From the UHGV virus genome UHGV-0135480: 41,448 bases of DNA. The stretch is one strand, 5' to 3'. Each line of letters begins with the position of its first letter. Position 1 is the first letter of the stretch. The stretch comes from a virus. Shown one piece after another: positions 41-36,642 of this stretch. Made by a program: the position numbers and the translations under genes. A model generated the notes under the pieces. It ran no database searches and had not been told where the DNA came from. It was given only the letters and a program-made list of their open reading frames with translations.

Positions 41-116
41 AGTCCAAGTAGCTTATATGGTTAAAGCGCGTGTCTGAAAAACATGAGAAGAGGGTTCAAA
101 TCCCACTGGACTACCA
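41..116 (+). tRNA. tRNA, probable tRNA-Phe (anticodon GAA)
   Basis: Acceptor agtccag-like pairing 41-47 with 106-112, D-arm with GG, anticodon stem cgtgt(69-73)/acatg(81-85) with loop cTGAAaa (U33, GAA at 76-78), T-loop GGTTCAAATCC, encoded CCA 114-116. One acceptor and one T-stem mismatch lower confidence. Confidence 0.55.
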
Positions 117-966: not shown

Positions 967-1042
967 GAATCCGTGACAGAAATGGCTATGTGCCTGTCTG
1001 CAAAACAGGTTTATAAGGGTTCGAGTCCCTTCGGATTCTCCA
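967..1042 (+). tRNA. tRNA-Cys (anticodon GCA)
   Basis: Perfect 7-bp acceptor gaatccg(967-973)/cggattc(1032-1038), anticodon stem cctgt/acagg with loop cTGCAaa (GCA 1000-1002), T-arm aaggg-TTCGAGT-ccctt, discriminator U then CCA 1040-1042. A U73 discriminator is typical of tRNA-Cys. Confidence 0.8.
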
Positions 1043-12740: not shown

Positions 12741-20756
<8,016 letters not shown>

Positions 20757-24609: not shown

Positions 24610-24977
24610 AGTGGCTAGAGGAAGCTTTTAAAAATAATATTGGTGCAATTGTAGTTGGTATTTTTAGTGTTATTGGGATGTATACCACGATGCAAGTTTC
24701 AAGTGGTAAACAAGAAGTGTCTGTCACAACAAAGTTACAGCAGCTAGATAATTATTCCAAAAGTAACTATTCAGCTATTCGTGATTTACAGTCTGACATG
24801 AGACTGATTCAGCTAGGGATGGAGAACCAGAAAGTTCAGTTAGAGAATGTTAAGGGTGAAAACGCAAAACTTACCAAAACTCTTGATAAATTCTCTGACA
24901 GTGTGAATAATCTGGCTCAATCAGTATCAGCCCTCCAAGCTATTACTGAGAAGAACACAAAGAATACTGAAAAATAA
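24606..24977 (+). CDS. membrane-anchored coiled-coil protein, possible i-spanin-like or fibre-associated protein
   Basis: 123 aa, N-terminal TM-like segment (IGAIVVGIFSVIGMYTTMQV) followed by a helical Q/L/K-rich region; ATGA overlap with the upstream ORF. Confidence 0.3.
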   Translation: MKWLEEAFKNNIGAIVVGIFSVIGMYTTMQVSSGKQEVSVTTKLQQLDNYSKSNYSAIRDLQSDMRLIQLGMENQKVQLENVKGENAKLTKTLDKFSDSVNNLAQSVSALQAITEKNTKNTEK

Positions 24978-24985
24978 AATTTTAA

Positions 24986-25011
24986 GGCTCCTTTTGACGG
25001 GAGCCTTTTTT
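24986..25011. terminator. bidirectional intrinsic terminator between convergent late (+) and early (-) blocks
   Basis: Stem ggctcc(24986-24991)/ggagcc(25000-25005), then TTTTTT on the + strand; the A/T run upstream gives a U-tract for the - strand. Confidence 0.6.
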
Positions 25012-25015
25012 GTTT

Positions 25016-25915
25016 TTACTTACCTACTGACAAAGGTGCTTCAATCTTTCCTGCATGTTTGTAGTTGTTGATGCCACCAATAAAGTCACTTGCAGTAAGA
25101 TGTTTTAAGTCACTTAAGGTGTTAAGTTGTACACCAATCTCAAAAGTAGGTGCATGGAACTCTTCATTGTTCATCAGTTCATAAACCTGCTTCATATGGT
25201 TCTGGTAAATCTGAGTGTCTCCAAAGACACCTATCAAGTATCGTGGAGTGTATCCAGTCATCTTACAAAGAACTTCTAAGATGAAGCCATAAGACGCAAT
25301 ATTAAATGGAAGTCCTAAAAAGGTGTCTACAGAACGTTGATACCATTGTAAGTCAACTTCACCTTCGTTAGTAATATAAATCTGAAACAAAACATGGCAA
25401 GGTGCTAAAGCCATCGAGTTTGCTGCAATATCTGCTGCATTCCAAGCATTAACAAGCATGTAGCGGTCTGTGATATCACCCTTCATCTTTGCTACTAAGG
25501 TCTCTAACTGGTCTACAACACAACCATTATGACCCTCAAAGTTCCTCCACTGAACCCCATAGATTCTCCCACCTGCATCTTCTAACCAATCTTGTTCAGA
25601 AGAATAATTAGAACTTAACCAGCGTTTAAAATCATCTGACCAGATAGTCCAGCGTTCTCCGTCATTTTCACCCCATGTGCGGTAACGGAGTTCGCCAAGC
25701 TTATTCTCGCCATTCAGGAACCATAAAGCTTCCCCAATGACTTGCCGTGTAAACACCTGTTTAGATGTTAAGAGCGGGAAACCAGTTCGCATATCAAAAC
25801 GAAACTGAGGTGGAGCAAATGCAGAGGTAACATCTCCAGTTCGTGTAGTACGCAGTTCACCAACGGATAAAACATGGTTCAGGATATTTTTGTAACTTGA
25901 ATCTGCTTGTGACAT
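25016..25915 (-). CDS. thyA: thymidylate synthase
   Basis: 299 aa with ThyA-type N-terminal region (ELRTTRTGDVTSAFAPPQFRFDM) and overall ThyA-like length and composition; ATG start. Confidence 0.85.
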   Translation of the reverse strand: MSQADSSYKNILNHVLSVGELRTTRTGDVTSAFAPPQFRFDMRTGFPLLTSKQVFTRQVIGEALWFLNGENKLGELRYRTWGENDGERWTIWSDDFKRWLSSNYSSEQDWLEDAGGRIYGVQWRNFEGHNGCVVDQLETLVAKMKGDITDRYMLVNAWNAADIAANSMALAPCHVLFQIYITNEGEVDLQWYQRSVDTFLGLPFNIASYGFILEVLCKMTGYTPRYLIGVFGDTQIYQNHMKQVYELMNNEEFHAPTFEIGVQLNTLSDLKHLTASDFIGGINNYKHAGKIEAPLSVGK

Positions 25916-25916
25916 A

Positions 25917-26462
25917 TCAAAAGTGTCCTTTTACTTGTGGAACATAAATTTCAAAAGTTGCTTTACCATCCTCTGATGGTTTTGACTGTACCTTTGTAAA
26001 TACACGGTTATCATACAGCTTCTCAAAGAAGTTTTCAAAAGGTAAATGCACAGTGGCCTCTTGAGTAACTTTATGGAAGACTGTATGGAACACCACACCA
26101 GCATACGGTAAAGCATTGACAAGGACACCTGCACCACCAATTACAAAGACATCTTCATCAATAGAGCTATCAAGATACTTCAAAAATGCTCCAAATGACT
26201 CTTTACTGGCTTTAGCATACATTACATCATCTTTGCCAAAGTCTATGCCTAAGTATGGTACAGAATTTGTTAAGATTAGGTTTGCACGTTCTGGTAGAGG
26301 TTTACTACCCAGAGTCTTAAAAGTCTCATTACCCATGACTACTAAGTTGTTTTTAGTGAGTCTCTTAAACTCTTGCATATCCTGTTTATGTCGAGGCCAC
26401 GGCATACCAGTTGGAGTACCAAACTCTCCATTTTCACCACTTGCAAAGATTAATTTAATCAT
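25917..26462 (-). CDS. folA: dihydrofolate reductase
   Basis: 181 aa starting MIKLIFA..G.PW, resembling DHFR N-termini such as T4 frd; directly upstream of thyA. Confidence 0.8.
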   Translation of the reverse strand: MIKLIFASGENGEFGTPTGMPWPRHKQDMQEFKRLTKNNLVVMGNETFKTLGSKPLPERANLILTNSVPYLGIDFGKDDVMYAKASKESFGAFLKYLDSSIDEDVFVIGGAGVLVNALPYAGVVFHTVFHKVTQEATVHLPFENFFEKLYDNRVFTKVQSKPSEDGKATFEIYVPQVKGHF

Positions 26463-26719
26463 TTTGTAAATCCTTTCTTAATAAACCAGTTGATAACATT
26501 CTTCACAGCTTTACTACGATGGTAGATAAAATGTGGAGAGGGTTGGTATGAACCATAAGCCCAGAAAGCGATAATTTCATTACACCCTGTGCATCGGGTA
26601 CTTTCTTCAGCAATATGACCGTTGACTATTTCACTTACCTCACCTTGTAAGTCTGTACACCCGCAATGTGGACAACGGATAGGTGTTCCATCAGACTCAT
26701 AGCAGTGTTCAATTTTCAT
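26459..26719 (-). CDS. small Cys-rich (zinc-ribbon-like) protein
   Basis: 86 aa with CPHCGC and CTGC pairs; stop overlaps the DHFR start (ATGA-type overlap). Confidence 0.45.
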   Translation of the reverse strand: MKIEHCYESDGTPIRCPHCGCTDLQGEVSEIVNGHIAEESTRCTGCNEIIAFWAYGSYQPSPHFIYHRSKAVKNVINWFIKKGFTK

Positions 26720-27235
26720 CTATTTAACCTCAAAAACTGGTTCAAGAACCAATATAAAGTCTACACAGTCATCTTCTTCATCCAGAATACCATCAAAGTT
26801 CTTAGGTACAAAGTCGAAGAGGCTCATAGAATATCGGTCAGAAGTAACCCTGATAGTGTTCCCTATATTCTCTACAGTTAATATTGTACGGCTTTCTGTT
26901 ACCTCACTTAGAAGATTACTCACAAAGTCATCTAAGAAGTGTTTCATCAGTGACTTGAAGCCTTTAGGGTAATCTGTACCAGAGTATGTTTCAATCTGAG
27001 GAACAAGCTTAACATTTATACTAGTCTTTGTTAAGAACGTTTTAGAGAACATGCTATCAGGTAGCTTACAAACAGTCTTTCCAGTACCTTCATGTTCAAT
27101 CTCAACAAAACCAGCTTCGTCGCCACATGTAACTATTTTAAAAGATGCTTCATTCTCATACTGTGAAGCCATAAACTTTTTAAGCATCTCTTTAAGGAAA
27201 TCTGCATGAGCATCTTGTAAGTAGATATCAATCAT
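26720..27235 (-). CDS. hypothetical protein
   Basis: ORF-track start 27241 is TTG; ATG at 27235 has AGGTGA 6 nt upstream. No motif. Confidence 0.45.
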   Translation of the reverse strand: MIDIYLQDAHADFLKEMLKKFMASQYENEASFKIVTCGDEAGFVEIEHEGTGKTVCKLPDSMFSKTFLTKTSINVKLVPQIETYSGTDYPKGFKSLMKHFLDDFVSNLLSEVTESRTILTVENIGNTIRVTSDRYSMSLFDFVPKNFDGILDEEDDCVDFILVLEPVFEVK

Positions 27236-27248
27236 AATCAATCACCTA

Positions 27249-27608
27249 TTATGGGAACAGACACTTAATGTCGTCGTTTTTGAAAACGAAACTTGTGTAG
27301 TTGTGACCATCAACATCTAGCCAAACAGCCTGAACATCTACACCATCAAGGTTGTGGTAAAGCTCTTTGATGAAGTGGTCTTTTACAATCTGACTGCTAG
27401 TTGTTTCCAACTTAATGTTCGAGATTGCTGAACCTACAGCCATATAGCCCATGACACGTTTCTTCTCAGTATGCTTAATCTTACCATCTTTGTAAGCCAT
27501 AATGAGATTGGAAAGAATTTTTACACCATAATACTTTTCAAGGTGAGTAGGTACACCATAAAAGCCTAATGCGAAGTTTTCAGAGTGGATAATGTTTTCA
27601 CGTTTCAT
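27249..27608 (-). CDS. hypothetical protein
   Basis: 119 aa, ATG start at 27608; no motif. Confidence 0.45.
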   Translation of the reverse strand: MKRENIIHSENFALGFYGVPTHLEKYYGVKILSNLIMAYKDGKIKHTEKKRVMGYMAVGSAISNIKLETTSSQIVKDHFIKELYHNLDGVDVQAVWLDVDGHNYTSFVFKNDDIKCLFP

Positions 27609-27609
27609 A

Positions 27610-27909
27610 TTAATCTGCCAACCTTAAATTAAAATTAACACCAAATTTTTCACATACTTCCAACATATACTCAAGAGAGACATTCCCAGTGAGGTGGATT
27701 ATGTTGGATACACGAGCCTGAGAGATACCACAAATTTTAGCAACTTGCTCTTGAGAAAGACCTCTGGACTTAATCTCTCTCTTAAAACGATGTGCAACAA
27801 AGTCTCTCATTTCGTCTACATCCATTGGACAAATATAACTCTCCATTTCAGCCTCTCTATCAGCCTCCCAATCATCTTGTGGAGCATAAGGGTCAAAAAC
27901 CTCATTCAT
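27610..27909 (-). CDS. XRE-family helix-turn-helix transcriptional regulator
   Basis: C-terminal HTH LSQEQVAKICGISQARVSNI; ORF-track start 27939 is TTG, ATG at 27909. Confidence 0.6.
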   Translation of the reverse strand: MNEVFDPYAPQDDWEADREAEMESYICPMDVDEMRDFVAHRFKREIKSRGLSQEQVAKICGISQARVSNIIHLTGNVSLEYMLEVCEKFGVNFNLRLAD

Positions 27910-28114
27910 CTTTCTTCTTCCGTTTGCGTGAAGTGTCAATCAATGAATCTATGTTTGTAGCTCTAACCTTTTCACGTTCATCGTTAAGATAATCATCAAG
28001 AGCCTTTTCAATCTGTGAATTATCTTGACAGATAACTGTAAAGACTGTAAAGCCGTCTGTATCGTCAATTATCTTACCATAACCGCTTCTGGGATGTACT
28101 TTTTAAGAGCCATA

Positions 28115-28498
28115 TCAAATACCTGTGCAGCTTCTGTTTTCTAAGAAATACTCAACACCATACATAGCTTTTTGCATCAAATCTTCTTTAAACTGGATAC
28201 GGTGGTTGAGCATCGCCTGTACATCAATATCGTCATGGTGTTTCTCTTTAATGTTTGCAGATTGCAGGAAATACTCTGCAAGAACACGATACTGATAGTC
28301 AGTTACCTTATCAGTCATCTCTGTTAAAGACTCTTCAGAGATTGGTTTAAGTAACTCACCATTAGCTAGAGCAACACCTTTAACAATCTGGCAAGTGTCT
28401 TCTGGAACACCTGATAAGTCCACATTTGGAAGTTCTGTTGCATTGACTGGTAAATTCATTGCCATAACCATTGCAGCAGCTAATAAAATCTTTTTCAT
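28115..28498 (-). CDS. secreted/periplasmic protein with N-terminal signal peptide
   Basis: 127 aa; N-terminus MKKILLAAAMVMAMNLPVNA followed by TE is a classic Sec signal peptide. Function unknown. Confidence 0.5.
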   Translation of the reverse strand: MKKILLAAAMVMAMNLPVNATELPNVDLSGVPEDTCQIVKGVALANGELLKPISEESLTEMTDKVTDYQYRVLAEYFLQSANIKEKHHDDIDVQAMLNHRIQFKEDLMQKAMYGVEYFLENRSCTGI

Positions 28499-28542
28499 AA
28501 TGACCTCAAAGTTATATTAAATTTTGTATTACATTGAGTATA

Positions 28543-28571
28543 AAAATAAGCTATAACACCTGACTTGTCAA
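28543..28571 (-). promoter_or_regulatory. candidate sigma70-like promoter for the secreted-protein operon (TTGACA-N17-TATTTT on the - strand)
   Basis: Reverse-strand TTGACA at 28571..28566 and TATTTT at 28548..28543, about 45 nt upstream of the ATG at 28498. The -10 is weak. Confidence 0.35.
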
Positions 28572-28626
28572 CAGATTTTATAGCTTATTTGGCAGATTTT
28601 TTATAAGGCTACTGCCATCCTTCCAA

Positions 28627-28681
28627 ACTATACCAAACCTAACCCCACCTAACCCTACCACACCAGACCTAACCTAACCTT
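28627..28681. repeat. pentanucleotide-periodic tract A1, (ACCNN)x11 on + strand
   Basis: ACC at 28632, 28637 ... 28677 with exact 5-nt spacing (ACCAA ACCTA ACCCC ACCTA ACCCT ACCAC ACCAG ACCTA ACCTA ACCTT). Confidence 0.85.
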
Positions 28682-28682
28682 G

Positions 28683-28751
28683 TTAAAAGACCCTCTTAAA
28701 GACCTTTTAAAAAGGTAAGTCTCATTTTAATGTAGCTGAGACTAACTACCC
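28683..28751. repeat. conserved 69-bp module, copy 1: 33-bp box plus 7-bp-stem hairpin
   Basis: Box ttaaaagaccctcttaaagaccttttaaaaagg (28683-28715), hairpin agtctca-12 nt-tgagact (28718-28743), then aactaccc. Identical to 30094-30162. Confidence 0.85.
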
Positions 28752-28753
28752 AT

Positions 28754-28813
28754 ACCAGACCCTACCTTACCAAACCAGACCTCACCCTACCCCACCATAC
28801 CGTATACTACCTC
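28754..28813. repeat. pentanucleotide-periodic tract A2, (ACCNN)x12
   Basis: ACC at 28754 + 5k for k = 0-11, with one degenerate unit (ATA at 28804). Confidence 0.85.
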
Positions 28814-28814
28814 A

Positions 28815-28863
28815 TTAAAAGACCCTCTTAAAGACCTTTTAAAAAGGAGCCTCCGAAGAGGCT
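28815..28863 (-). terminator. 33-bp box copy 2 plus GC hairpin with UUCG-type loop: intrinsic terminator for the - strand gene ending at 28875
   Basis: On the - strand, hairpin agcctc-ttcg-gaggct (28863..28848) is followed by CC TTTTT from the box complement. Box 28815-28847 is identical to copies 1 and 3. Confidence 0.55.
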
Positions 28864-28874
28864 ACCTAGTCAAC

Positions 28875-29315
28875 TTAGAAAGGTTTTCTGCGTTGCTTGT
28901 TAATGTTAGCTTTCATAGCAGCTAAGTGGTTTTGCTGTTCAATTAGTCGTGAACGTTCTTGGTGGCTAAGTGCCATAGTGTTCACATTCTCAATTGCTTG
29001 AGTAGCTTGCTTTAAAGCACGACCAATTTTACCAGACATTTTACGTTTTGCAATAGTTGCTTGATGCTTAGGTTCAACCACACGATAACCAACACCCATT
29101 GAAGCAACCAGATAAATCTTCTCTTCTTTAAGAAGCTTCTCAATAAACTTCTCAAGTCGGTTTAGACGTGTAAGCGCATAAGCCTTCATTTCATCTTCGT
29201 ACTTAACAATGTCACCTTGATAAGTTGGCTTCACAATACCTAAGAAGGTGTCCATCTCAGAGTGTGATACAGTGTCACCGTAACTAAACTTTGCTGCTAA
29301 TGCTTTTGTATTCAT
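28875..29315 (-). CDS. hypothetical protein (146 aa), cassette gene 2
   Basis: ATG at 29315, stop at 28875 followed by the hairpin/U-tract; basic helical C-terminus. No motif recognised. Confidence 0.5.
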   Translation of the reverse strand: MNTKALAAKFSYGDTVSHSEMDTFLGIVKPTYQGDIVKYEDEMKAYALTRLNRLEKFIEKLLKEEKIYLVASMGVGYRVVEPKHQATIAKRKMSGKIGRALKQATQAIENVNTMALSHQERSRLIEQQNHLAAMKANINKQRRKPF

Positions 29316-29317
29316 AA

Positions 29318-29923
<606 letters not shown>

Positions 29924-30017
29924 TTAGTTGATTGTTAAGTTGTTTGTAAAGAACCCTCAACAGAAGACTCTTTAGAAACTTGGTAGATTTTTAACGTGGC
30001 TACTACCATCCACCCAT

Positions 30018-30092
30018 ACCATACCGAACCTTACCTTACCAAACCAGACCGCGCCTTACCAAACCAGACCAAACATTACTTTACCCTACCTT
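30018..30092. repeat. pentanucleotide-periodic tract B1, (ACCNN)x15
   Basis: ACC (occasionally GCC/ACA/ACT) at 30018 + 5k for k = 0-14; contains the 17-nt subrepeat ccttaccaaaccagacc also present in tract A2. Confidence 0.85.
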
Positions 30093-30093
30093 A

Positions 30094-30162
30094 TTAAAAG
30101 ACCCTCTTAAAGACCTTTTAAAAAGGTAAGTCTCATTTTAATGTAGCTGAGACTAACTACCC
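30094..30162. repeat. conserved 69-bp module, copy 2 (identical to 28683-28751)
   Basis: Box 30094-30126 and hairpin agtctca...tgagact 30129-30154 plus aactaccc; on the - strand the hairpin is followed by TACC TTTTT, so it may act as a terminator or attenuator. Confidence 0.85.
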
Positions 30163-30169
30163 GCACTTT

Positions 30170-30259
30170 ACCGCACCGGACCTTACCGGACCGCACATCA
30201 CCGCACTAAACCAGACATCACATTACCTGACCACACCAAACCAAACATCACATTACTTA
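30170..30259. repeat. pentanucleotide-periodic tract B2, (ACYNN/ACANN)x18
   Basis: AC at 30170 + 5k for k = 0-17 (ACCGC ACCGG ACCTT ACCGG ACCGC ACATC ACCGC ACTAA ACCAG ACATC ACATT ACCTG ACCAC ACCAA ACCAA ACATC ACATT ACTTA). Confidence 0.85.
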
Positions 30260-30289
30260 AAAACCCTCTTAGAAGACTCTTAAGTGATG

Positions 30290-30331
30290 TTGGTGAGTAC
30301 CCGTTGGTTTATGCTGCTCAGTATACTCACC
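30290..30331. other. long hairpin (about 10-bp stem, 22-nt loop) just downstream of the ligase gene, preceded by a degenerate box copy (30257-30284)
   Basis: ttggtgagta (30290-30299) pairs with tactcaccaa (30322-30331); the degenerate box ttaaaaaccctcttagaagactcttaag lies just 5'. Confidence 0.5.
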
Positions 30332-30347
30332 AAATTTTCTATGTCAA
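30320..30347 (-). promoter_or_regulatory. sigma70-like promoter on the - strand (TTGACA-N16-TATACT) reading into repeat region B
   Basis: Reverse-strand TTGACA at 30347..30342 and TATACT at 30325..30320; located between the ligase stop and the repeat region. Confidence 0.45.
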
Positions 30348-30353
30348 CAACTT

Positions 30354-31454
30354 TTATTCATAATCTCGAATAACTAACCCAACAGGGAACTGTAAAGAAC
30401 CCTTACGAGTCATCTTCTGGAACTGTACCGTTAAGGGCTTCCCGATAAACTCTTCAGGATGTTCAGCAAGATACTGTTTCTTCTCGTGTGTAGTTTTCCA
30501 TGAAACATCTACAAAGACGTTAGGAAGAGTCTCTACAACGAACTTGCCATGACCACGTTTGTCAGTCTTTACACCAGTCACTTTAAATTCTTCAGTGTGC
30601 ATCTTCTTGTGCTTAATCAAGAAGTATGAACGGTGACCACACTCATAGAAGGAGTCTTCAGAGATTGAACGGTACATTGCACCTTCAAACTTAGCTTCAA
30701 CCCACTTATCATGGGCTTCATCAAACTCTTCCCAAGAATTTACACGACGAGACTTAACAGGAACAACTTTACAGCCATCTCTAAAGTCATTCAATGGTGA
30801 AGTCTCAATAATATCTCTACGCTCAGGCCACGTCTTAGTGCTGTCACAGATATCGTACCAGTAGAACTGGAGTAGATGTCGGTCTGGATTGTCAGCATTC
30901 TTAATCATAGACACAATATCTTCTAAGTCCCAACCATGAGCATAAATCTCACCATCAAAGTCTTCTACTTGTGGATGCAATTTAAGCAACAAAAGCAAAT
31001 CTGGGGTTAGTTCTGCTGGGACGTTGTAAATAGTATTCTCACGAGAATAAGCCGTGAAGCTAACTAAATCAGCATCTCTTGAGATTCTACAACGGACACC
31101 ATCAAGTTTTGGTTGAGCATCAGCAGGGAACTTCAGATACTTTGCATGACTAACCTTTGCAGCATCATGAGCAAGCTGTACACCTACCTTCTCAGTATTC
31201 TGTGCAGACTCTTTTGTGTAAGCATAGCCTTTACGGTCAACTTGCTTTTTATACTTAGCAGCAACTTCAAAGAGAGCTTGCTGTTCAGCATTACGCTCAT
31301 TCTTTTTACCGATGTTTTTAGGTTCTGCTGTATACTCTTCAAACATCATCTTGCCATTTTCTTTACCGTAGGTTGTAATAACTTTGTCACCTACAGCAAC
31401 GCATGACCAGACGTTAAAAGAGCCATCTTTATTTTGTTTGTACAGAATTGTCAT
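30354..31454 (-). CDS. ATP-dependent DNA ligase
   Basis: Adenylation motif KLDGVRC (K-x-D-G), size about 366 aa; ATG at 31454 has AGAGG upstream (ORF-track start 31490 is another in-frame ATG). N-terminal region of about 95 aa precedes the catalytic motif. Confidence 0.75.
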   Translation of the reverse strand: MTILYKQNKDGSFNVWSCVAVGDKVITTYGKENGKMMFEEYTAEPKNIGKKNERNAEQQALFEVAAKYKKQVDRKGYAYTKESAQNTEKVGVQLAHDAAKVSHAKYLKFPADAQPKLDGVRCRISRDADLVSFTAYSRENTIYNVPAELTPDLLLLLKLHPQVEDFDGEIYAHGWDLEDIVSMIKNADNPDRHLLQFYWYDICDSTKTWPERRDIIETSPLNDFRDGCKVVPVKSRRVNSWEEFDEAHDKWVEAKFEGAMYRSISEDSFYECGHRSYFLIKHKKMHTEEFKVTGVKTDKRGHGKFVVETLPNVFVDVSWKTTHEKKQYLAEHPEEFIGKPLTVQFQKMTRKGSLQFPVGLVIRDYE

Positions 31455-31647
31455 TTTTAACCTCTGAGTGATACCAAGTGTAACAAGCATTACATGCGTA
31501 AAGCTCTAAGTCATTTTTATCTGGTTTATGGAAACAGTTTGACCCACAACGACACCGGAATAGTTTACCATCAACACGAAGAATGAATGTTTCAAGCTCA
31601 CCATCTTCTGTAAGAACTGCGTTCTTAAATTTATCTTCTACAGTCAT
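31429..31647 (-). CDS. small Cys-rich zinc-ribbon-like protein
   Basis: 72 aa with CRCGSNCFH and CNACYTWYH; 3' end overlaps the ligase start. Confidence 0.45.
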   Translation of the reverse strand: MTVEDKFKNAVLTEDGELETFILRVDGKLFRCRCGSNCFHKPDKNDLELYACNACYTWYHSEVKNDNSVQTK

Positions 31648-31850
31648 TTTCTCTTACCACCAATCTCTACGTCAATCACTTGAACATCACCAGCAACATC
31701 AAACTTATGAATGATGCTTTCCACAGTGTAAGTCCAACCCTCGATTCGAACCAACTCACCTTCTCGTGGGACGATTGGGTTACGTTGAGCTACGGTTGTA
31801 GTGGAGTGAACAACATCATAACAGTAGATATAGTTTACTAGGACTTCCAT
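31644..31850 (-). CDS. hypothetical small protein
   Basis: ORF track extends to a TTG at 31949; ATG at 31850 has GTGAGG upstream and avoids overlap with the lipoprotein gene. Confidence 0.4.
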   Translation of the reverse strand: MEVLVNYIYCYDVVHSTTTVAQRNPIVPREGELVRIEGWTYTVESIIHKFDVAGDVQVIDVEIGGKRK

Positions 31851-31860
31851 CTTGAAAACC

Positions 31861-32118
31861 TCACTCAATAACAGTAGTGTGAGATTGACCATTTTTGCCA
31901 TATCTATAAGATGTTGTTGTTTGAGAGTTGTGGCATCTGACAACAACAATATCCCTGCTTATAGCATCACCATTGAGTTTGTAGATTTTGCAGTCTTGCA
32001 TCTCTGGAGGGAGGCTGTAAGAGGCATCTTTGTTTTCATAAGATGGGTTACAGCCAGCCAGAAAAATTACTACAAGTGCAACCATTACTTTCACACAACT
32101 CTTAACCTTATTGTTCAC
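31861..32118 (-). CDS. small lipoprotein (lipobox LAGC), candidate superinfection-exclusion or envelope protein
   Basis: GTG start with GAGAGG RBS; N-terminus MNNKVKSCVKVMVALVVIFLAGC is a lipoprotein signal peptide; mature part about 63 aa with 2 Cys. Confidence 0.55.
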   Translation of the reverse strand: MNNKVKSCVKVMVALVVIFLAGCNPSYENKDASYSLPPEMQDCKIYKLNGDAISRDIVVVRCHNSQTTTSYRYGKNGQSHTTVIE

Positions 32119-32250
32119 GATAGTCTACCTCTCTGTATGTTTTTAAATAGTGAGTGATGAGTTCTGGTAATTCACTACGTTTAACGTTTGAACGAATAAG
32201 TGTCCAGTCAAAACCTTTACCAACCCTTCCCCAGAGACTGTACATTCTCT

Positions 32251-32469
32251 TCATAGCAACTCCAGAATATCAATACGCTCACCTTTGAGTACTCCAGTAC
32301 GGTCTTTTGCAATCTTACCTTCAACAATAAGAATGTGTGCAGACCTTAAAGTGTCGCTGTTAAAGGTTTTTACGAACCTACTAGGCATGACTACAATGCA
32401 CATCTCCTGAATCAGCTCTGGAGTATAGCAGTTATCATGAAGTTGCTGAATAACGTCTGCAAGTGTCAT
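32251..32469 (-). CDS. hypothetical small protein
   Basis: ATG at 32469 overlaps the upstream stop (ATGA); ORF-track start is TTG at 32484. Confidence 0.4.
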   Translation of the reverse strand: MTLADVIQQLHDNCYTPELIQEMCIVVMPSRFVKTFNSDTLRSAHILIVEGKIAKDRTGVLKGERIDILELL

Positions 32470-32675
32470 TTTTGATGTCTCCAATATTCAATATCTACAA
32501 GTTCTTGTGCAATGCTTTTAAGGTTACTTTTAAGGAAAACTTTCTCACCACCAGACAGGGAAGTATTATCAATGAGTCTGTTCATTCTCTCAAACAACTT
32601 CTGCTTACGATTCTTGATAGTCTCCTTTGAAGCACCTTTCATCATTGCTGCATGGGTTCTTCCACGGTGGCTCAT
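32466..32675 (-). CDS. hypothetical small basic protein
   Basis: 69 aa, ATG at 32675 with strong AGGAGG RBS. Confidence 0.45.
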   Translation of the reverse strand: MSHRGRTHAAMMKGASKETIKNRKQKLFERMNRLIDNTSLSGGEKVFLKSNLKSIAQELVDIEYWRHQK

Positions 32676-32726
32676 AAGTCCTCCTATATAAGATATTGTA
32701 TAAGGTACTCTTCCATGAGCACCTTG

Positions 32727-33251
32727 TCAACTTAGTTTTGCAAATTCTCCGTGGAGTTTAATAGCAGCTTCACAGTAAGCTTTATGGGCTTCTTCTGGTG
32801 TGTCAAACATACCAAGATGATAGTTTTTACCTTGTAAACGTATCATTGCTCGAAACCTTTTACTTATCTTCTGTACACCTTTTGGCAACCAAGATGGGGA
32901 CTTTCTTGACCGATTGCAAGAGTTTTGTGAAGCTGTACAAACCCTTAAATTCAAGTACCTATTGTCCCAACCGTCCCCATTCTTATGGTCAACCTGTAAG
33001 GTTTTATCAGGTAGGTAACCATCCACATATAGTATTGCTAGACGGTTAGCTTGGTAGCCTTTACCATCAAGCAATAACTGAACAGACTTGTGACCATCTG
33101 TGTTTACCCTATAATTTCCTGCCTTTTTACCTCCAAAACGAGAGTTGAAGTTCTTATTGCCTCGTGATACCGGCTCTCTAAACTTCCAAGTAAAGACCCC
33201 TGTTTCGGGGTCGTAGTCCAATAGCTCCTTAAGACGAATTTCTGTAATCAT
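32727..33251 (-). CDS. HNH homing endonuclease with C-terminal AP2-like DNA-binding domain
   Basis: N-terminal LKELLDYDPETGVFTW motif, HNH core VDHKNGDGWDNRYLNLRVCTASQN, C-terminal AP2-like segment; ATG at 33251 (ORF-track TTG at 33290 would overlap the polymerase). Confidence 0.8.
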   Translation of the reverse strand: MITEIRLKELLDYDPETGVFTWKFREPVSRGNKNFNSRFGGKKAGNYRVNTDGHKSVQLLLDGKGYQANRLAILYVDGYLPDKTLQVDHKNGDGWDNRYLNLRVCTASQNSCNRSRKSPSWLPKGVQKISKRFRAMIRLQGKNYHLGMFDTPEEAHKAYCEAAIKLHGEFAKLS

Positions 33252-33261
33252 TTCAACACCA

Positions 33262-35961
33262 TCAATGTACTTCCAACCAGCTCTTACCAACCTTACCTGT
33301 GCCAGTTACAAGCGTCTCACTCTTCAAACCTAAATTCTTAGATGCCTGACCATACATCCAGTCAGTTATGGCTTTCACTTCTTGAGTCATACTTTCTGGA
33401 CATTCCCAACTGTTTTCATCGTGGTATGCCAGCAAAAGCCTCGCACCGATTGCTGGTTTTCGTCCATTTAATTTTGTCAAACCTTCTTCACACGCTCTTC
33501 TGCAAGCAAGGTTAATTGCCTCATTTTGAATCTGAGCCTCTGAACCCATGAGCAAATAATTCAACAACTTATGTGGAGATTTACACCACAACCAAGCTCC
33601 AGCAACCTTTACAAAACCACCTTTAGAGATTGCAGCAGTCTTACCAAATACCTCTTCAAGTGCCTTTTTAGTTGCTTTGTAGTCAGCTTCCAAATCATCC
33701 AGCAACTTCTTAATTTTAGGCAAACGGATAAAGTAAGTCTGCTTAGTCAGTGCACCTTCCTGAGTAGTTGCAGCTTTAATCGTCTTAGCAAACTTCTCAT
33801 CACCTGCACCAAACAAAAGTGCATAGATACCATTCTTAGCTTTCTTACGACCCTTGCTAATCTCATGGAGAAGGTTCTCATCCTGAGTAGCTCGACAAGT
33901 CAAGATATCCTGCTCATCATTCAAGCTAAAGTAAATACTGTTCAGTGTGTGTGCATCAGTCCCTGAATAGACAACGTACAGGTCATTCTCAGAGTCATAG
34001 CGAAGGTACTTATCAATCTCTGGGTTGAGGTACTCATCAAAGTGTTTGCAGTAATAGCGTCCATCTTCTTGACGAATAAACTCAATCTCTTCTTTACCTT
34101 GCGTTACCGCTTTGGTGAAGTCTTTATCACCCATAAAGTTACAAAGGAGAACTAGCTGGGCTGAGTTCATGTCTACAGAGACAACGTTAGTACCTTCTTC
34201 ACAAATCCACACTGCCCTCATTGGTTCCCCATAGACAGCAGCACCAGACGGTACGTTTACAATACCATATTGTGTCATACGTCCAGTTGAAGTACCAAAC
34301 ACCATTGCACCAGCACTAAGGCGACCATCAGGACGAATCTGGTTCAACCAACCTTTTTCATCATCCTTTGAGTTCTCAATAGTTCTGCGTCGGTGCATCA
34401 AAGTATAGTACTTAGCAATCTTCTGTCCAAGTTCACCTTCAATCGTATCATAAGATGACTCAGTAAGCTTTGGTGAAGTACGGATTAAGCAAGGCTCAAG
34501 CAAATCTGTGTATTTTTTCACAGACCAGTTATGCTCAATGTACTGGACACCTTCATGTTCAACATAGCTCAAACCACACCGCTCAACCATTTCCTGCCAC
34601 TTAGGATGTTTTGTAATCATCTTTTTATTGTCTTTGAAACGACAAACTTTAACAGGGCGACCATCTGAGTCTTTCTTGTAGTTCCAGTCATCTGGTATCC
34701 AACCAACTGATTTCAAGTAGTCTTTAACAACTGCTACCTGAGTCATACGAGAAACTTCAAACTCAATTGGTGTATACGGTGCATCAATCAATCCTGTGTA
34801 TCGACTTGACTCAAGTTCAAAGTGGTTAACAACGTGGCTGTTATAGTACTTCACAGTTTTGACTGTTTTTACTGACTTCCAGTCTTTGCATTTCTTACCA
34901 ATCTTTGCGTTCAACTCATTGCAAATTGCACGAGCATCCTTCATTGCTACAAAGCCTTCCTTGTACTCTTCACCAGTTACAGAGTTGGTTGGTGTATAGC
35001 AATTTCTCTTTTCAATGTTAAAAATCTTTGTAGTTGGCTTACCAAATGGTTTGATTTCATAAGTCTGCATCTCACCATTACGTACCTGCTGACGATACTT
35101 CGTCTTAGGGTACTTGGTAATTCTTTTCAGTCCATCTGCATGACCAAATGCTTCAACATACTCATTCCAAGCCTTTGCAAACTCTTCTCCAGTGACTTTA
35201 CCTTTGGTCTTAATAGTTGGAGGTAGATGTGGTTCAACCTCTGAAGCAAGCTCATTAGTCAACTTGTCAAGTTCCTTTACATGGAACTCCATAAGCTCTT
35301 TATCAGCTTTCCAGCCATTGATAGCTTGTTGACTCATCCAGAAAGATGTTTCTTTAGCTCGCATGTAGGTTTCATAAGTGTCTATGCCACACTTCTTAAG
35401 CTTGAGATATTCATTATCAAGTGCCCGTTTAGTTTTGGCGTTAATACGGATATCTTCTACAACACGAGTGAAGATTTCTGCATTCCACACACCCCAGTGT
35501 TCAATCTCTGGTTTACGAACACCAACACGAGCACCCCATGCAGCCAAACCATGAGCACCTTTATAACCCTTTGGAGTTGGTCTATCCATCCACTGAACAC
35601 GAGACTGGATAAGAGAATCCTGAAAGAAATTACTCCACGGTTTACACTTTGGATTATCAAAGTTCCATAAATCAGGTGCAATGTGATTGAAAACCCACCA
35701 GTCATAACCGAGACCATTATGGATGCAAAGACGTTTTGCCTTTAACGCAAACTCAATACCTTCACGTAAGCCACCCTTGATGTACTTGGTGTACTTGTGA
35801 CCGAGAATAGGTTCATCTGTAAAGACCCATACAGGTGGCTCTTCATCGTCAGATTTATAGTCTGCGAAAGCCATTACGTGCACTTTAGTGAACTCAAGGA
35901 GTAAACCATCAGTTTCTGTATCACCAACTAAATGTAAGTTTTTAAAATCTACGTTTTCCAT
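33262..35961 (-). CDS. DNA polymerase, family A, with N-terminal 3'-5' exonuclease domain
   Basis: About 899 aa; Exo I motif LVGDTETDGL near the N-terminus, polymerase-domain length and C-terminal His typical of Pol I/T7 gp5-type enzymes; ATG at 35961 has GAGGGA upstream (ORF-track ATG 35991 also possible). Confidence 0.9.
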   Translation of the reverse strand: MENVDFKNLHLVGDTETDGLLLEFTKVHVMAFADYKSDDEEPPVWVFTDEPILGHKYTKYIKGGLREGIEFALKAKRLCIHNGLGYDWWVFNHIAPDLWNFDNPKCKPWSNFFQDSLIQSRVQWMDRPTPKGYKGAHGLAAWGARVGVRKPEIEHWGVWNAEIFTRVVEDIRINAKTKRALDNEYLKLKKCGIDTYETYMRAKETSFWMSQQAINGWKADKELMEFHVKELDKLTNELASEVEPHLPPTIKTKGKVTGEEFAKAWNEYVEAFGHADGLKRITKYPKTKYRQQVRNGEMQTYEIKPFGKPTTKIFNIEKRNCYTPTNSVTGEEYKEGFVAMKDARAICNELNAKIGKKCKDWKSVKTVKTVKYYNSHVVNHFELESSRYTGLIDAPYTPIEFEVSRMTQVAVVKDYLKSVGWIPDDWNYKKDSDGRPVKVCRFKDNKKMITKHPKWQEMVERCGLSYVEHEGVQYIEHNWSVKKYTDLLEPCLIRTSPKLTESSYDTIEGELGQKIAKYYTLMHRRRTIENSKDDEKGWLNQIRPDGRLSAGAMVFGTSTGRMTQYGIVNVPSGAAVYGEPMRAVWICEEGTNVVSVDMNSAQLVLLCNFMGDKDFTKAVTQGKEEIEFIRQEDGRYYCKHFDEYLNPEIDKYLRYDSENDLYVVYSGTDAHTLNSIYFSLNDEQDILTCRATQDENLLHEISKGRKKAKNGIYALLFGAGDEKFAKTIKAATTQEGALTKQTYFIRLPKIKKLLDDLEADYKATKKALEEVFGKTAAISKGGFVKVAGAWLWCKSPHKLLNYLLMGSEAQIQNEAINLACRRACEEGLTKLNGRKPAIGARLLLAYHDENSWECPESMTQEVKAITDWMYGQASKNLGLKSETLVTGTGKVGKSWLEVH

Positions 35962-35991
35962 TTTTACTCCCTCTAAAATCATTAACCTCAT

Positions 35992-36219
35992 ACATTACTG
36001 CAAAAAATTATAAAAAGCAAGTTGACAATGCACTTGACAAGGTGTTAATCTTTGCGAAGTGGGTTTTTACTTAAAAGGTTACTTAACAGTTTAACTATAC
36101 AGATACTTTAAAACTCTTAAAAGATTATTTAATAGCTTTTTAAAAAGCTTTAAAGTATAACGTATAGAATACGTTAAGATAAAAGATTAAAACTTAATAG
36201 TTACTTAAAAGAGGCTTAC
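35992..36219. promoter_or_regulatory. AT-rich divergent intergenic region with tandem TTGACA hexamers and two palindromes
   Basis: TTGACA at 36022-36027 and 36034-36039; 16-bp perfect palindrome agctttttaaaaagct (36134-36149); 8-bp inverted repeat taacgtat-aga-atacgtta (36158-36176) overlapping TATAGAAT. Confidence 0.4.
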
Positions 36220-36642
36220 ATGCAGAAAATGTTTGTTCACCCAGACATAGCTGACTTTGTTAGAGCTTTGCAGAAGTTGGAAGAACTTGACATTGCTGCT
36301 CAACGGGAATATGCTCACCATCACAGGAGAATGGTTGATATACAACATGAAATAGAGTTGTCTGAAAACTATGAAGATGACTTAAAATGCTCTGTATTTG
36401 AGCATATGAAAGATGTTGCTACAGCGAGACGTAAAGCTAAAGACACAGTTGCTTTACTAGATTCTCTTAAAAAGAGGTTGCAAAGTGGTACAGACCTGTG
36501 TAATCTAGCGTCACTGATTAACGATGTTGAAACTTCTTGGGATAGGCACTATTATCCACGTTCTGAAAAGACACTTGACTTTTCTTCATCCGAAAACTTA
36601 AAATGTTCTAGAAAGAAACTTAACCAACTGAGAGAGAAATAA
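36220..36642 (+). CDS. hypothetical protein (140 aa)
   Basis: ATG with AAAAGAGG RBS; first gene of the + strand block divergent from the polymerase. No motif. Confidence 0.5.
   Translation: MQKMFVHPDIADFVRALQKLEELDIAAQREYAHHHRRMVDIQHEIELSENYEDDLKCSVFEHMKDVATARRKAKDTVALLDSLKKRLQSGTDLCNLASLINDVETSWDRHYYPRSEKTLDFSSSENLKCSRKKLNQLREK

What the first reader, a model, noticed from the sequence alone, without database searches (positions are those of the whole stretch)
28815..28863. Module hairpins plus box form tandem intrinsic terminators on the - strand, with a promoter upstream of region B
Read on the - strand, each hairpin is followed by CC TTTTT or TACC TTTTT supplied by the box complement; the 28863..28848 hairpin has a GC stem and UUCG-type loop directly after the stop of the gene ending at 28875. 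Region A carries two such terminators in series. In region B a TTGACA-N16-TATACT promoter (30347..30320) sits upstream of the same elements, so transcripts from it must pass a terminator-like hairpin and two G/U-rich tracts before reaching the gene at 29905. That is the architecture of a long regulated leader or attenuator rather than a simple promoter.
Basis: partly seen in the sequence, partly recalled or inferred. Interest (0 to 1): 0.6.

Follow-up and report, generated by a model that had tools for sequence, protein, structure and literature searches.

The report
VIPR guide-RNA arrays, not attenuator
The hairpins, "box" and G/U-rich tracts belong to guide-RNA arrays of a phage VIPR system, an RNA-guided gene-silencing system first described in 2026 preprints, so the attenuator reading is replaced and the finding is already explained.

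Summary
The sequence features are real, but tandem terminators or an attenuator is not the best reading. The window is a Felix O1-like coliphage.

- **Genes.** The two genes between regions A and B are vipr (29318-29905, 190/195 identical to SUSP1 Vipr, PDB 36pp) and vap1 (28875-29315, 145/146 identical).
- **G/U-rich tracts.** The four tracts are strict (GGY-NN)n pentamer repeats, which is the vrRNA guide format of VIPR (bioRxiv 10.64898/2026.04.26.720920).
- **Module hairpin.** GTCTCA/TGAGAC is stem B of the vrRNA 3' pseudoknot tail.
- **T-run.** The box T-run is the 5' arm of a conserved 12-16 bp stem-loop in front of every guide. In a second box class it is replaced by ATCACTT, with compensatory changes in the 3' arm. 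Selection therefore acts on pairing, not on a U-tract.
- **Targets.** Under the published 1-nt-skip rule, guides B1 and A1 match an E. coli satellite element (18/18 and 21/22 NN positions; 0 of 300 shuffles reach this).
The hairpin at 28866-28836 has the form of an intrinsic terminator. The TTGACA-N16-TATACT promoter is conserved in 18 of 19 relatives.

Novelty: already known. The box stem-loop and a two-target 19-unit guide do not appear in the preprint text I searched.

The parts
30320..30347 (-). Sigma-70-type promoter TTGACA-N16-TATACT, the likely promoter of the VIPR operon
   Evidence: 11/12 match, the best in 24900-36300. Identical or nearly identical in 18 of 19 related loci, always upstream of the first vrRNA; distance to the vipr ATG varies from 264 to 553 nt.
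30250..30291 (-). Class-b box stem-loop (ATCACTTAAGAG ... TTTTTAAGTAATG), the leader of vrRNA B1
   Evidence: RNAfold -13.1 kcal/mol. Covaries with class-a boxes.
30163..30257 (-). vrRNA B1 repeat tract, 19 pentamer units (several with G1 degenerate)
   Evidence: Units 10-18 match satellite tape-measure genes at 18/18 NN positions. Units 1-9 match a roughly 235-aa satellite gene at 18/18. 0 of 300 shuffles reach this.
30129..30162 (-). vrRNA B1 3' tail: H-type pseudoknot (GGTAG/CTAC and GTCTCA/TGAGAC).
   Evidence: The SUSP1 tail is identical, and its pseudoknot was resolved by cryo-EM.
30089..30126 (-). Class-a box stem-loop (CCTTTTTAAAAG ... CTTTTAATAAGG). Its 5' arm is the T-run read as a terminator tail.
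   Evidence: -10.8 kcal/mol. 93.7% of cells paired, 5 pairs with double-sided changes.
30016..30090 (-). vrRNA B2 repeat tract, 15 units
   Evidence: 19/22 NN match recurs about 170-200 nt upstream of the same satellite gene in several satellites, but is not above shuffles in 9-unit windows.
29982..30015 (-). vrRNA B2 3' tail, variant T2a (GTGGAT/AGCCAC and GGTAG/CTACC). No T-run follows it.
   Evidence: Compensatory differences from T2b.
29318..29905 (-). vipr gene (195 aa, RAMP-like protein that binds GGY repeats)
   Evidence: PDB 36pp_D 'SUSP1 Vipr protein', E = 2.6e-127. 190/195 identical to SUSP1. 9 of 10 published contact residues present.
28875..29315 (-). vap1 accessory gene (146 aa)
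   Evidence: 145/146 identical to SUSP1 agp038, in the same position next to vipr. Role taken from the preprint.
28836..28866 (-). Hairpin GG-U-AGCCUC-UUCG-GAGGCU-CC followed by U5: intrinsic-terminator form after the vap stop codon
   Evidence: -12.7 kcal/mol. Invariant wherever the upstream flank was displayed (window and four relatives, including SUSP1), so there is no covariation evidence.
28810..28847 (-). Class-a box stem-loop, the leader of vrRNA A1 (most of the finding's coordinates)
   Evidence: -11.1 kcal/mol.
28752..28811 (-). vrRNA A1 repeat tract, 12 units
   Evidence: 21/22 NN match in satellite L054 5219-5250 and 19/20 in L061. 0 of 300 shuffles reach this.
28718..28751 (-). vrRNA A1 3' pseudoknot tail (T1a), the second module hairpin
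28678..28715 (-). Class-a box stem-loop, the leader of vrRNA A2
   Evidence: -10.4 kcal/mol.
28625..28679 (-). vrRNA A2 repeat tract, 11 units
   Evidence: 16/18 NN match in the satellite baseplate gene; 5 of 300 shuffles reach this.
28591..28624 (-). vrRNA A2 3' tail, variant T2b (AAGGAT/AGCCTT and GGCAG/CTGCC)
28540..28592 (-). AT-rich 19-bp hairpin followed by a T-run, the likely end of the VIPR transcription unit. It overlaps the promoter TTGACA-N17-TATTTT of the next gene.
   Evidence: I1; -17.8 kcal/mol. The overlapping promoter segment, which spans the hairpin loop and 3' arm, is conserved in all 19 loci.

Best explanation
Regions A and B are the two guide-RNA arrays of a type II VIPR (Viral Interference Programmable Repeat) locus in a Felix O1-like coliphage.

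Inferred transcription order on the - strand:
1. The conserved promoter at 30347-30320 starts the transcript.
2. It runs through a box stem-loop, vrRNA B1, a second box stem-loop and vrRNA B2.
3. It continues through vipr and vap1.
4. It passes a terminator-like hairpin, then a box and vrRNA A1, then a box and vrRNA A2.
5. It probably ends at the AT-rich hairpin at 28592-28540.

Shown for the near-identical SUSP1 system in the preprints:
- Each vrRNA is a run of GGY-NN pentamers capped by a roughly 34-nt 3' pseudoknot.
- Vipr protomers polymerise one per repeat and hold the GGY bases, leaving the NN dinucleotides free.
- The NN dinucleotides pair with double-stranded DNA, skipping every third base, and this silences transcription.

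Shown here by sequence matching: the targets of this phage's guides are genes and intergenic regions of a 10-12 kb satellite element integrated in E. coli chromosomes.

Consequences for the finding:
- The box is a separate conserved RNA stem-loop directly 5' of each guide. Its T-run is a stem arm.
- My inference, untested, is that the box marks the guide boundary or is a processing site.
- The hairpin after vap1 may terminate some transcripts, but it must allow read-through for the downstream guides to be made.
For: Identity of the proteins:
- Vipr matches PDB 36pp_D at E = 2.6e-127.
- Vipr is 190/195 and Vap1 145/146 identical to SUSP1, with the same synteny.
- H17, K33, E71, M72, R138, C173, D177, W178 and R179 are present.

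Repeat tracts:
- Across 59 unique tracts from 19 loci, G1 is 85%, G2 98% and Y3 100%. N4 and N5 are close to uniform.
- Only these four tracts exist in the 89-kb TH10 genome.
- Vipr homologues at 37-40% identity in metagenomic phages also have such tracts, without box or hairpin.

RNA structures:
- The tail stems show compensatory changes: GTCTCA/TGAGAC to ATCGGA/TYCGAT, GGTAG/CTACC to GGCAG/CTGCC, and GTGG/CCAC to AAGG/CCTT.
- In the box stem, 93.7% of cells pair, against 39-64% when the partner is slid. Five pairs change on both sides, and G-U pairs point to RNA.

Targets:
- B1 matches at 18/18 twice and A1 at 21/22; 0 of 300 shuffles reach this.
- Of 58 guides from relatives, 38 reach at least 17/18 at skip 1. 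None does so when shuffled or at skip 0, 2 or 3.
- There is no self-target at 80% or more.

Mechanism: taken from the preprints.
Against: - No RNA data exist for this phage. Expression, processing and RNP formation are extrapolated from SUSP1.
- Guides B2 and A2 have no match clearly above shuffled controls in the 13 satellites sampled.
- B1 has 19 units, outside the published 9-16 range, and many of its 5' units have A or T at G1.
- The function of the box stem-loop is not established anywhere.
- Its covariation rests essentially on two sequence classes, which means few independent events.
- The source papers are preprints.
Confidence: 0.92

Rival explanations
1. One reading: the hairpins plus the box T-runs are tandem intrinsic terminators. 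Region B is then a long regulated leader or attenuator controlling the 29905 gene.
For: - The 28866-28836 hairpin plus U5 passes the terminator scan and has -12.7 kcal/mol.
- T1a tails are followed by UUACCUUUUU.
- GenBank annotators of phage ASO1B predicted rho-independent terminators in both regions.
- The promoter upstream is conserved.
- Termination at class-a T-runs could help form vrRNA 3' ends.
Against: - The T-run is missing after 12 of 29 unique tails. It is replaced by ATCACTT, with compensatory changes in its pairing partner.
- The module hairpins fail the scan criteria, having a 12-nt loop and a 4-5 nt spacer before the U-run.
- The hairpin is part of a pseudoknot seen by cryo-EM.
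- SUSP1 expresses all three guides downstream of the same elements.
- The plasmid construct described in the preprint comprises vrRNA1 followed by the vipr CDS. If vipr is expressed from the vector promoter, transcription must read through vrRNA1.
- No alternative-pairing or sensing logic was found.
- Terminator-like sites are not enriched.
Confidence: 0.1
2. The tracts and boxes act as double-stranded DNA sites: iterons, a partition centromere or a replication origin. The KhF3 GenBank record suggests this with its note 'possible binding site of StbAB'.
For: - Arrays of short direct repeats near replication genes.
- A repeat annotation in KhF3.
- The box contains palindromic sequence.
Against: - All tracts lie on one strand, the sense strand of vipr, in every locus, including distant ones.
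- G-U pairs in the box stem would be A-C mismatches on the other strand.
- The NN positions encode matches to satellite DNA.
- The RNAs co-purify with Vipr in SUSP1.
- The genome termini lie about 28 kb away.
Confidence: 0.02
3. The G-rich sense-strand tracts act through nucleic-acid physics: R-loop or G-quadruplex formation. Alternatively, their C-rich complement acts as Rho-loading sites that block antisense transcription.
For: - Extreme GC skew.
- GG runs every 5 nt could form two-tetrad quadruplexes.
- The + strand is C-rich and G-poor, like rut sites.
Against: - These models do not predict an invariant pyrimidine at position 3 or free variation at positions 4-5.
- They do not predict the 1-nt-skip matches to satellites, which are absent at other skips.
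- They do not predict linkage to Vipr homologues across 37% identity.
Confidence: 0.02

Closest known systems
Type II VIPR system of Escherichia phage SUSP1 (bioRxiv 10.64898/2026.04.26.720920 and 10.64898/2026.04.26.720927; PDB 36pp)
   Same: - Vipr is 97% and Vap1 99% identical.
- Same position between the DNA ligase gene and the agp037 homologue.
- Same GGY-NN repeats, the same tail variants and boxes, and the same promoter.
- Guides hit the same kind of satellite element under the 1-nt-skip rule.
   Different: - The host phage is a Felixounavirus (98% identical to TH10), not the Suspvirus SUSP1.
- The array layout is 2 guides upstream and 2 downstream, against 1 and 3.
- The guide NN sequences differ.
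- B1 has 19 units with two separate targets, against the published 9-16 units.
Class 1 CRISPR-Cas crRNA with Cas7 (RAMP) backbone filaments
   Same: - RAMP-fold protomers polymerise along a guide RNA, and a thumb flips out bases periodically.
- Arrays of variable guide segments are separated by conserved structured elements.
- The box stem-loop found here resembles a repeat hairpin in position.
   Different: - The guide is not contiguous: only 2 of every 5 nt pair, and the target skips 1 in 3.
- There is no adaptation module or cas gene set.
- The system is phage-encoded and silences transcription.
- Whether the box is a processing signal is untested.
TRAP (trp RNA-binding attenuation protein) with its 11 (G/U)AG-NN repeats in Bacillus
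   Same: An oligomeric protein reads a trinucleotide repeated with a 5-nt period in a leader RNA upstream of genes. This is the nearest true attenuator with such periodicity (own knowledge).
   Different: - TRAP is a closed ring that wraps the RNA to favour a terminator, and its spacers carry no information.
- Here the spacers carry target information.
- The protein is a RAMP-like helical filament.
- No anti-terminator/terminator alternative was found.
Rho-independent (intrinsic) terminators
   Same: The 28866-28836 element has a GC-rich 8-bp stem, a UUCG loop and an immediately following U5.
   Different: - The other hairpin plus T-run pairs have long loops and spacers.
- The T-run is a conserved stem arm of the next structure and is dispensable in class-b modules.

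Membership tests
VIPR system (type II, SUSP1 clade) | A Vipr protein: a minimal RAMP-fold, GGY-binding protein | tested here: met
   PDB 36pp_D at E = 2.6e-127 over residues 1-195. 190/195 identical to SUSP1 agp039. 9 of 10 named contact residues present; position 175 is V in both phages.
VIPR system (type II, SUSP1 clade) | An adjacent vap accessory gene (vap1) | tested here: met
   The 146-aa ORF directly downstream is 145/146 identical to SUSP1 agp038.
VIPR system (type II, SUSP1 clade) | Flanking intergenic tracts of tandem GGY-NN pentamers (9-16 units) on the sense strand | tested here: met
   Four tracts of 19, 15, 12 and 11 units, all on the - strand. B1 exceeds the published range.
VIPR system (type II, SUSP1 clade) | GGY conserved and NN hypervariable among related loci | tested here: met
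   59 unique tracts from 19 loci: G 85%, G 98%, Y 100%, N4 and N5 close to uniform. Vipr is 96-100% identical across these loci.
VIPR system (type II, SUSP1 clade) | An invariable 3' tail of about 40 nt that folds into a hairpin plus pseudoknot | tested here: met
   The tails are identical to those of SUSP1 (L022). Four variants share an A-B-A'-(A-rich loop)-B' layout, with compensatory changes in both stems.
VIPR system (type II, SUSP1 clade) | NN dinucleotides match natural DNA targets under the 1-nt-skip rule | tested here: met
   B1 at 18/18 twice and A1 at 21/22 in E. coli satellites, with 0 of 300 shuffles reaching this. A2 is suggestive and B2 is not significant. Of 58 clade guides, 38 reach at least 17/18 at skip 1 only.
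VIPR system (type II, SUSP1 clade) | vrRNAs expressed as roughly 100-nt RNAs that form an RNP with Vipr and silence targets | not testable with these tools
   Shown for SUSP1 by sRNA-seq, pull-down, cryo-EM and GFP or phage assays. Not measured for this phage.
Intrinsic (Rho-independent) terminator | A stable GC-rich hairpin with a short loop, immediately followed by a U-tract | tested here: inconclusive
   Met in form by 28866-28836. Not met by the two module hairpins: 12-nt loop, -7.3 kcal/mol, 4-5 nt before U5, and not reported by the scan. Activity was not measured.
Intrinsic (Rho-independent) terminator | The U-tract is conserved as such in homologous elements | tested here: not met
   12 of 29 unique tails are followed by a class-b box with no T-run. 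The T-run columns covary with the 3' arm of the box stem.
Transcription attenuator or regulated leader | Mutually exclusive terminator and anti-terminator structures coupled to a sensed signal | tested here: not met
   No such alternative was found. The MFE folds show independent box hairpins and tails, and there is no Rfam leader or riboswitch hit. The tail directly before vipr (T2a) has no U-tract.

The most novel reading that the evidence does not exclude
The box stem-loop may be a dedicated boundary or processing element of type II VIPR arrays. It would be a functional counterpart of the CRISPR repeat hairpin, setting the 5' end of each guide or stopping 3'-to-5' Vipr polymerisation.

Separately, tracts such as B1 would show that two guides can fuse into one functional dual-specificity vrRNA after loss of the tail and box between them.

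Neither point appears in the text of the two preprints that I searched.
Probability: 0.4. Interest if true: 0.45.

Novelty: already known. Interest (0 to 1): 0.35.

Why it matters
The element is biologically remarkable. It is a phage-encoded, RNA-guided DNA-silencing system with a gapped recognition code, proposed to be older than CRISPR. However, it was described in 2026 preprints using a phage whose Vipr and Vap1 are 97-99% identical to those here, so this window adds another member rather than a discovery.

- **Correction to annotations.** Public annotations of Felix O1-like phages label these elements as terminators, plain repeats or an "StbAB binding site". They are guide arrays.
- **Independent replication.** From sequence alone, the 1-nt-skip rule and satellite targeting are reproduced with 58 guides from 19 loci.
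- **Testable additions.** Two small details are new relative to the preprint text I searched: a covarying stem-loop in front of every guide, and a 19-unit guide with two separate targets.

Tried and rejected
- **Genome-end repeats (like the T7 SRL/SRR arrays).** Rejected. The 608-bp terminal repeat of UAB_Phi87 maps next to the tRNA cluster, about 28 kb away.
- **R-loop origin, G-quadruplex, Rho rut site or a TRAP-like attenuator.** I considered these before the protein was identified. The position-specific conservation and the target matches rule them out.
- **Rfam at gathering threshold.** Only three tRNAs were found.
- **Pfam and PHROGs.** No function was assigned to either protein.
- **Exact 10-11-unit target patterns.**
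  - IMG/VR gave no hits for four patterns.
  - GTDB genomes gave 14 scattered hits, none in Enterobacteriaceae, which is consistent with chance.
  - JGI metagenomes gave one uninformative hit.
  - These scans failed because the natural matches cover only part of each tract.
- **blastn against E. coli genomes.** No match for the terminase/portal, capsid or head-tail regions, nor for region A. The satellite was found only after a supplementary figure legend (Fig. S14) named its tape-measure and baseplate homologues.
- **Contexts of 45-50% identical Vipr homologues (P0022, P0030).** These are other phages or prophages, not the satellite.
- **Supplementary file of the preprint.** It holds no satellite accession numbers.

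Full report
**Observation**

The window is a Felix O1-like myovirus. Region 28400-30450 is 98% identical to Escherichia virus TH10 and matches 278 phage records, mostly Felixounavirus.

- The hairpin AGCCTC-TTCG-GAGGCT (28863..28848) follows the stop of the 28875 gene and is followed by CCTTTTT.
- Two copies of GTCTCA-N12-TGAGAC are each followed by TTACCTTTTT.
- A 30-nt box occurs three times exactly, against 0 expected by chance.
- TTGACA-N16-TATACT lies at 30347..30320 and is the best promoter match in 11 kb.

The generic scans are not enriched. There are 26 promoter-like sites against 25.7 expected and 5 terminator-like sites against 6.4. Only the 28863 hairpin in regions A and B passes the terminator criteria.

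Laid out on the - strand, they have an exact 5-nt period, GGT-NN, with 11 to 19 units per tract. Only these four tracts exist in the whole 89-kb genome of the near-identical phage TH10.

**Identification**

Regions A and B flank two genes that have no Pfam match.
- The 195-aa protein (29318-29905) matches PDB entry 36pp, "SUSP1 Vipr protein", at E = 2.6e-127.
- It is 190/195 identical to SUSP1 agp039.
- The 146-aa protein is 145/146 identical to SUSP1 agp038, in the same position between the DNA ligase gene and the next early gene.

Two 2026 preprints describe this system as VIPR, Viral Interference Programmable Repeat.
- Vipr is a minimal RAMP-fold protein.
- vrRNAs are roughly 100-nt RNAs made of 9-16 GGY-NN repeats plus an invariable 3' tail with a pseudoknot.
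- One Vipr protomer binds each repeat and sequesters the GGY bases.
- The NN dinucleotides pair with double-stranded DNA while every third target base is skipped, and binding represses transcription.
- In SUSP1, one vrRNA lies upstream and three lie downstream of vipr-vap1.

Its tracts show the same 1 + 3 layout.

**Tests of VIPR membership on this sequence**

- Repeat composition: in 59 unique tracts from the window and 18 close relatives, position 1 is G in 85%, position 2 is G in 98% and position 3 is T or C in 100%. Positions 4 and 5 are close to uniform.
- Protein residues: the contact residues named in the structural preprint (H17, K33, E71, M72, R138, C173, D177, W178, R179) are present.
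- Distant relatives: Vipr homologues of only 37-40% identity in metagenomic phages carry GGY-NN tracts next to the gene. In L030 they fill every intergenic gap around the gene pair. These loci lack the box and the hairpins, so the tract is the conserved core.

**What the hairpins and the box are**

Each tract is followed by one of four tail variants.
- T1a: GGTAG-TTA-GTCTCA-G-CTAC-ATTAAAA-TGAGAC.
- T1b: the same, with ATCGGA / T(T/C)CGAT.
- T2a: GTGGAT-GGTAG-T-AGCCAC-GTTAAAAAT-CTACC.
- T2b: AAGGAT-GGCAG-T-AGCCTT-ATAAAAAAT-CTGCC.

All four have the interleaved order A-B-A'-(A-rich loop)-B' of an H-type pseudoknot. The variants differ by compensatory changes in both stems.

The box is a separate stem-loop directly 5' of every tract.
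- Class a pairs CCTTTTTAAAAG with CTTTTAAYRAGG.
- Class b pairs ATCACTTAAGAG with TTTTTAAGTGAT.
- On an alignment of 41 distinct leaders, 93.7% of cells pair, against 39-64% when the partner is slid. Five of 12 pairs change on both sides, and G-U pairs are frequent, which points to RNA rather than DNA.
- Predicted energies are -10 to -13 kcal/mol.

It is absent after 12 of 29 unique T1 tails, where ATCACTT replaces it with compensation in the 3' arm. Selection therefore acts on pairing, not on a U-tract.

The searchable text of the two preprints does not mention this stem-loop or how type II arrays are processed.

**Terminators and promoter**

The hairpin after vap1 extends to GG-U-AGCCUC-UUCG-GAGGCU-CC and is directly followed by U5, at -12.7 kcal/mol. 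Its form is that of an intrinsic terminator. It shows no variation among the loci where it was displayed, so comparison says nothing for or against it.

It cannot be fully efficient. The same element precedes three guides that are expressed in SUSP1 infection, and I found no sigma-70-type promoter between vap1 and the array.

The tail in front of vipr (T2a) has no U-tract. The promoter at 30347-30320 is conserved in 18 of 19 loci and always lies upstream of the first guide, while its distance to the vipr ATG varies from 264 to 553 nt with guide number. This fits one operon transcript that carries the guides and the genes together.

An AT-rich 19-bp hairpin with a T-run (28592-28540, -17.8 kcal/mol) follows the last guide and overlaps the next gene's promoter. 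It is the more likely end of the unit. I found no mutually exclusive structures or sensing element that would make region B an attenuator.

**Targets**

Exact pattern scans of public collections gave nothing informative. A figure legend in the preprint named satellite homologues of the SUSP1 tape-measure and baseplate proteins.

The window's baseplate gene (14968-15765) then hit chromosomal elements in 472 of 5,426 complete E. coli genomes, at up to about 94% nucleotide identity. I fetched 13 of them. They are elements of roughly 10-12 kb with a serine recombinase, a tape-measure gene and a baseplate gene, inserted at several chromosomal sites.

Results under the 1-nt-skip rule:

| Guide | Best match | Location in the satellite | Shuffles reaching it (of 300, best 9-unit window) |
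|---|---|---|---|
| B1, units 10-18 | 18/18 NN positions, in five satellites | tape-measure gene | 0 |
| B1, units 1-9 | 18/18 (L061 8160-8185) | roughly 235-aa gene | 0 |
| A1 | 21/22 (L054 5219-5250) and 19/20 (L061) | intergenic | 0 |
| A2 | 16/18 | baseplate gene | 5 |
| B2 | 19/22, at the same upstream position in several satellites | upstream of the 235-aa gene | 69 (9-unit window scores 16/18) |

As an independent check of the rule, I scanned 58 unique guides from the 19 loci against the first eight satellites.
- At skip 1, 18 guides have a perfect 18/18 nine-unit window, 38 reach at least 17 and 52 reach at least 16.
- With shuffled unit order the counts are 0, 0 and 2.
- At skips 0, 2 and 3 no guide reaches 17.

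No guide matches the phage's own genome at 80% or more.

**Mechanism and verdict**

The finding's coordinates cover the vap1-proximal hairpin and the leader stem-loop of guide A1 in a type II VIPR locus.
- Shown here: protein identity, the repeat grammar, tail and box structures supported by compensation, promoter conservation, and satellite targets for two of four guides.
- Taken from the preprints for the near-identical SUSP1 system: expression as small RNAs, Vipr filament assembly, gapped pairing and silencing.
- Inferred: a single operon transcript, partial read-through of the vap1 hairpin, and a boundary or processing role for the box.

The attenuator reading is not supported. The terminator reading survives only for the vap1 hairpin, and possibly as a contributor to 3'-end formation at class-a modules.

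The system is already known, so interest is moderate to low despite its intrinsic appeal. The box stem-loop and the two-target 19-unit tract B1 are small additions that can be tested.

Noticed in passing
window 30163-30257 (-): Guide B1 has 19 units, outside the published 9-16 range. Its two halves each match a different satellite gene perfectly: units 1-9 match a roughly 235-aa gene and units 10-18 match the tape-measure gene. It looks like two guides fused by loss of the tail and box between them. Many units in the 5' half have A or T at G1.
   Followed up: partly
window 30250-30263 (-): The 3' arm of the class-b box overlaps the first two pseudo-units (AGTAA, TGTGA). The window has AAGTAATG where relatives have AAGTGATG. 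The change breaks a stem pair but makes unit 1 (AA) match the satellite target. This may be chance.
   Followed up: no
window 28540-28592 (-): A 19-bp AT-rich inverted repeat (-17.8 kcal/mol) followed by a T-run sits right after the last guide. The -35 TTGACA of the next gene's promoter lies in its loop. The overlapping promoter segment is conserved in all 19 related loci. It may be a combined terminator and promoter.
   Followed up: partly
window 14968-15765 (+); loci L049-L061: The first two thirds of the phage baseplate gene are up to about 94% identical in DNA to a gene in 10-12 kb serine-recombinase elements. These elements occur in 472 of 5,426 complete E. coli genomes, inserted at yecE (DUF72), ymdF-wrbA, mdtG-lpxL and yciI-tonB. 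Several copies are disrupted by IS elements.
   Followed up: partly
L060 3885-3947 (-), L061 3916-3978 (-): Two of the satellites carry their own 11-unit GGY-NN tract although no vipr gene is annotated there. This fits the preprint's remark that some satellites encode vrRNAs.
   Followed up: no
L030 2385-3818; L025-L029: Metagenomic phages with Vipr at 37-40% identity carry GGY-NN tracts next to the gene. L030 has tracts of 13-19 units in every gap around a 199-aa plus 148-aa gene pair, each ending in GGTTTTT(A/T)A, with no box or SUSP1-type tail.
   Followed up: partly
L001 (KhF3) 1993-2003; L002 (ASO1B) 1780-1824 and 3263-3296; L003 (fjerdesal) 1763-1795: Public records annotate parts of these arrays as 'possible binding site of StbAB', 'rho-independent terminator' or a plain repeat_region. 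None annotates guide RNAs.
   Followed up: yes
L011 (phage HY02): This relative keeps the conserved promoter but has only one detectable tract in all (none upstream of vipr), suggesting array loss or decay.
   Followed up: no
window 24984-25007: A GC-rich palindromic hairpin with T-runs on both strands lies between the convergent late (+) and early (-) gene blocks. It looks like a bidirectional terminator.
   Followed up: no
window 42-112, 870-959, 967-1039 (+): Three tRNA genes lie at the window start, next to the region where the 608-bp direct terminal repeat of the related phage UAB_Phi87 maps.
   Followed up: partly
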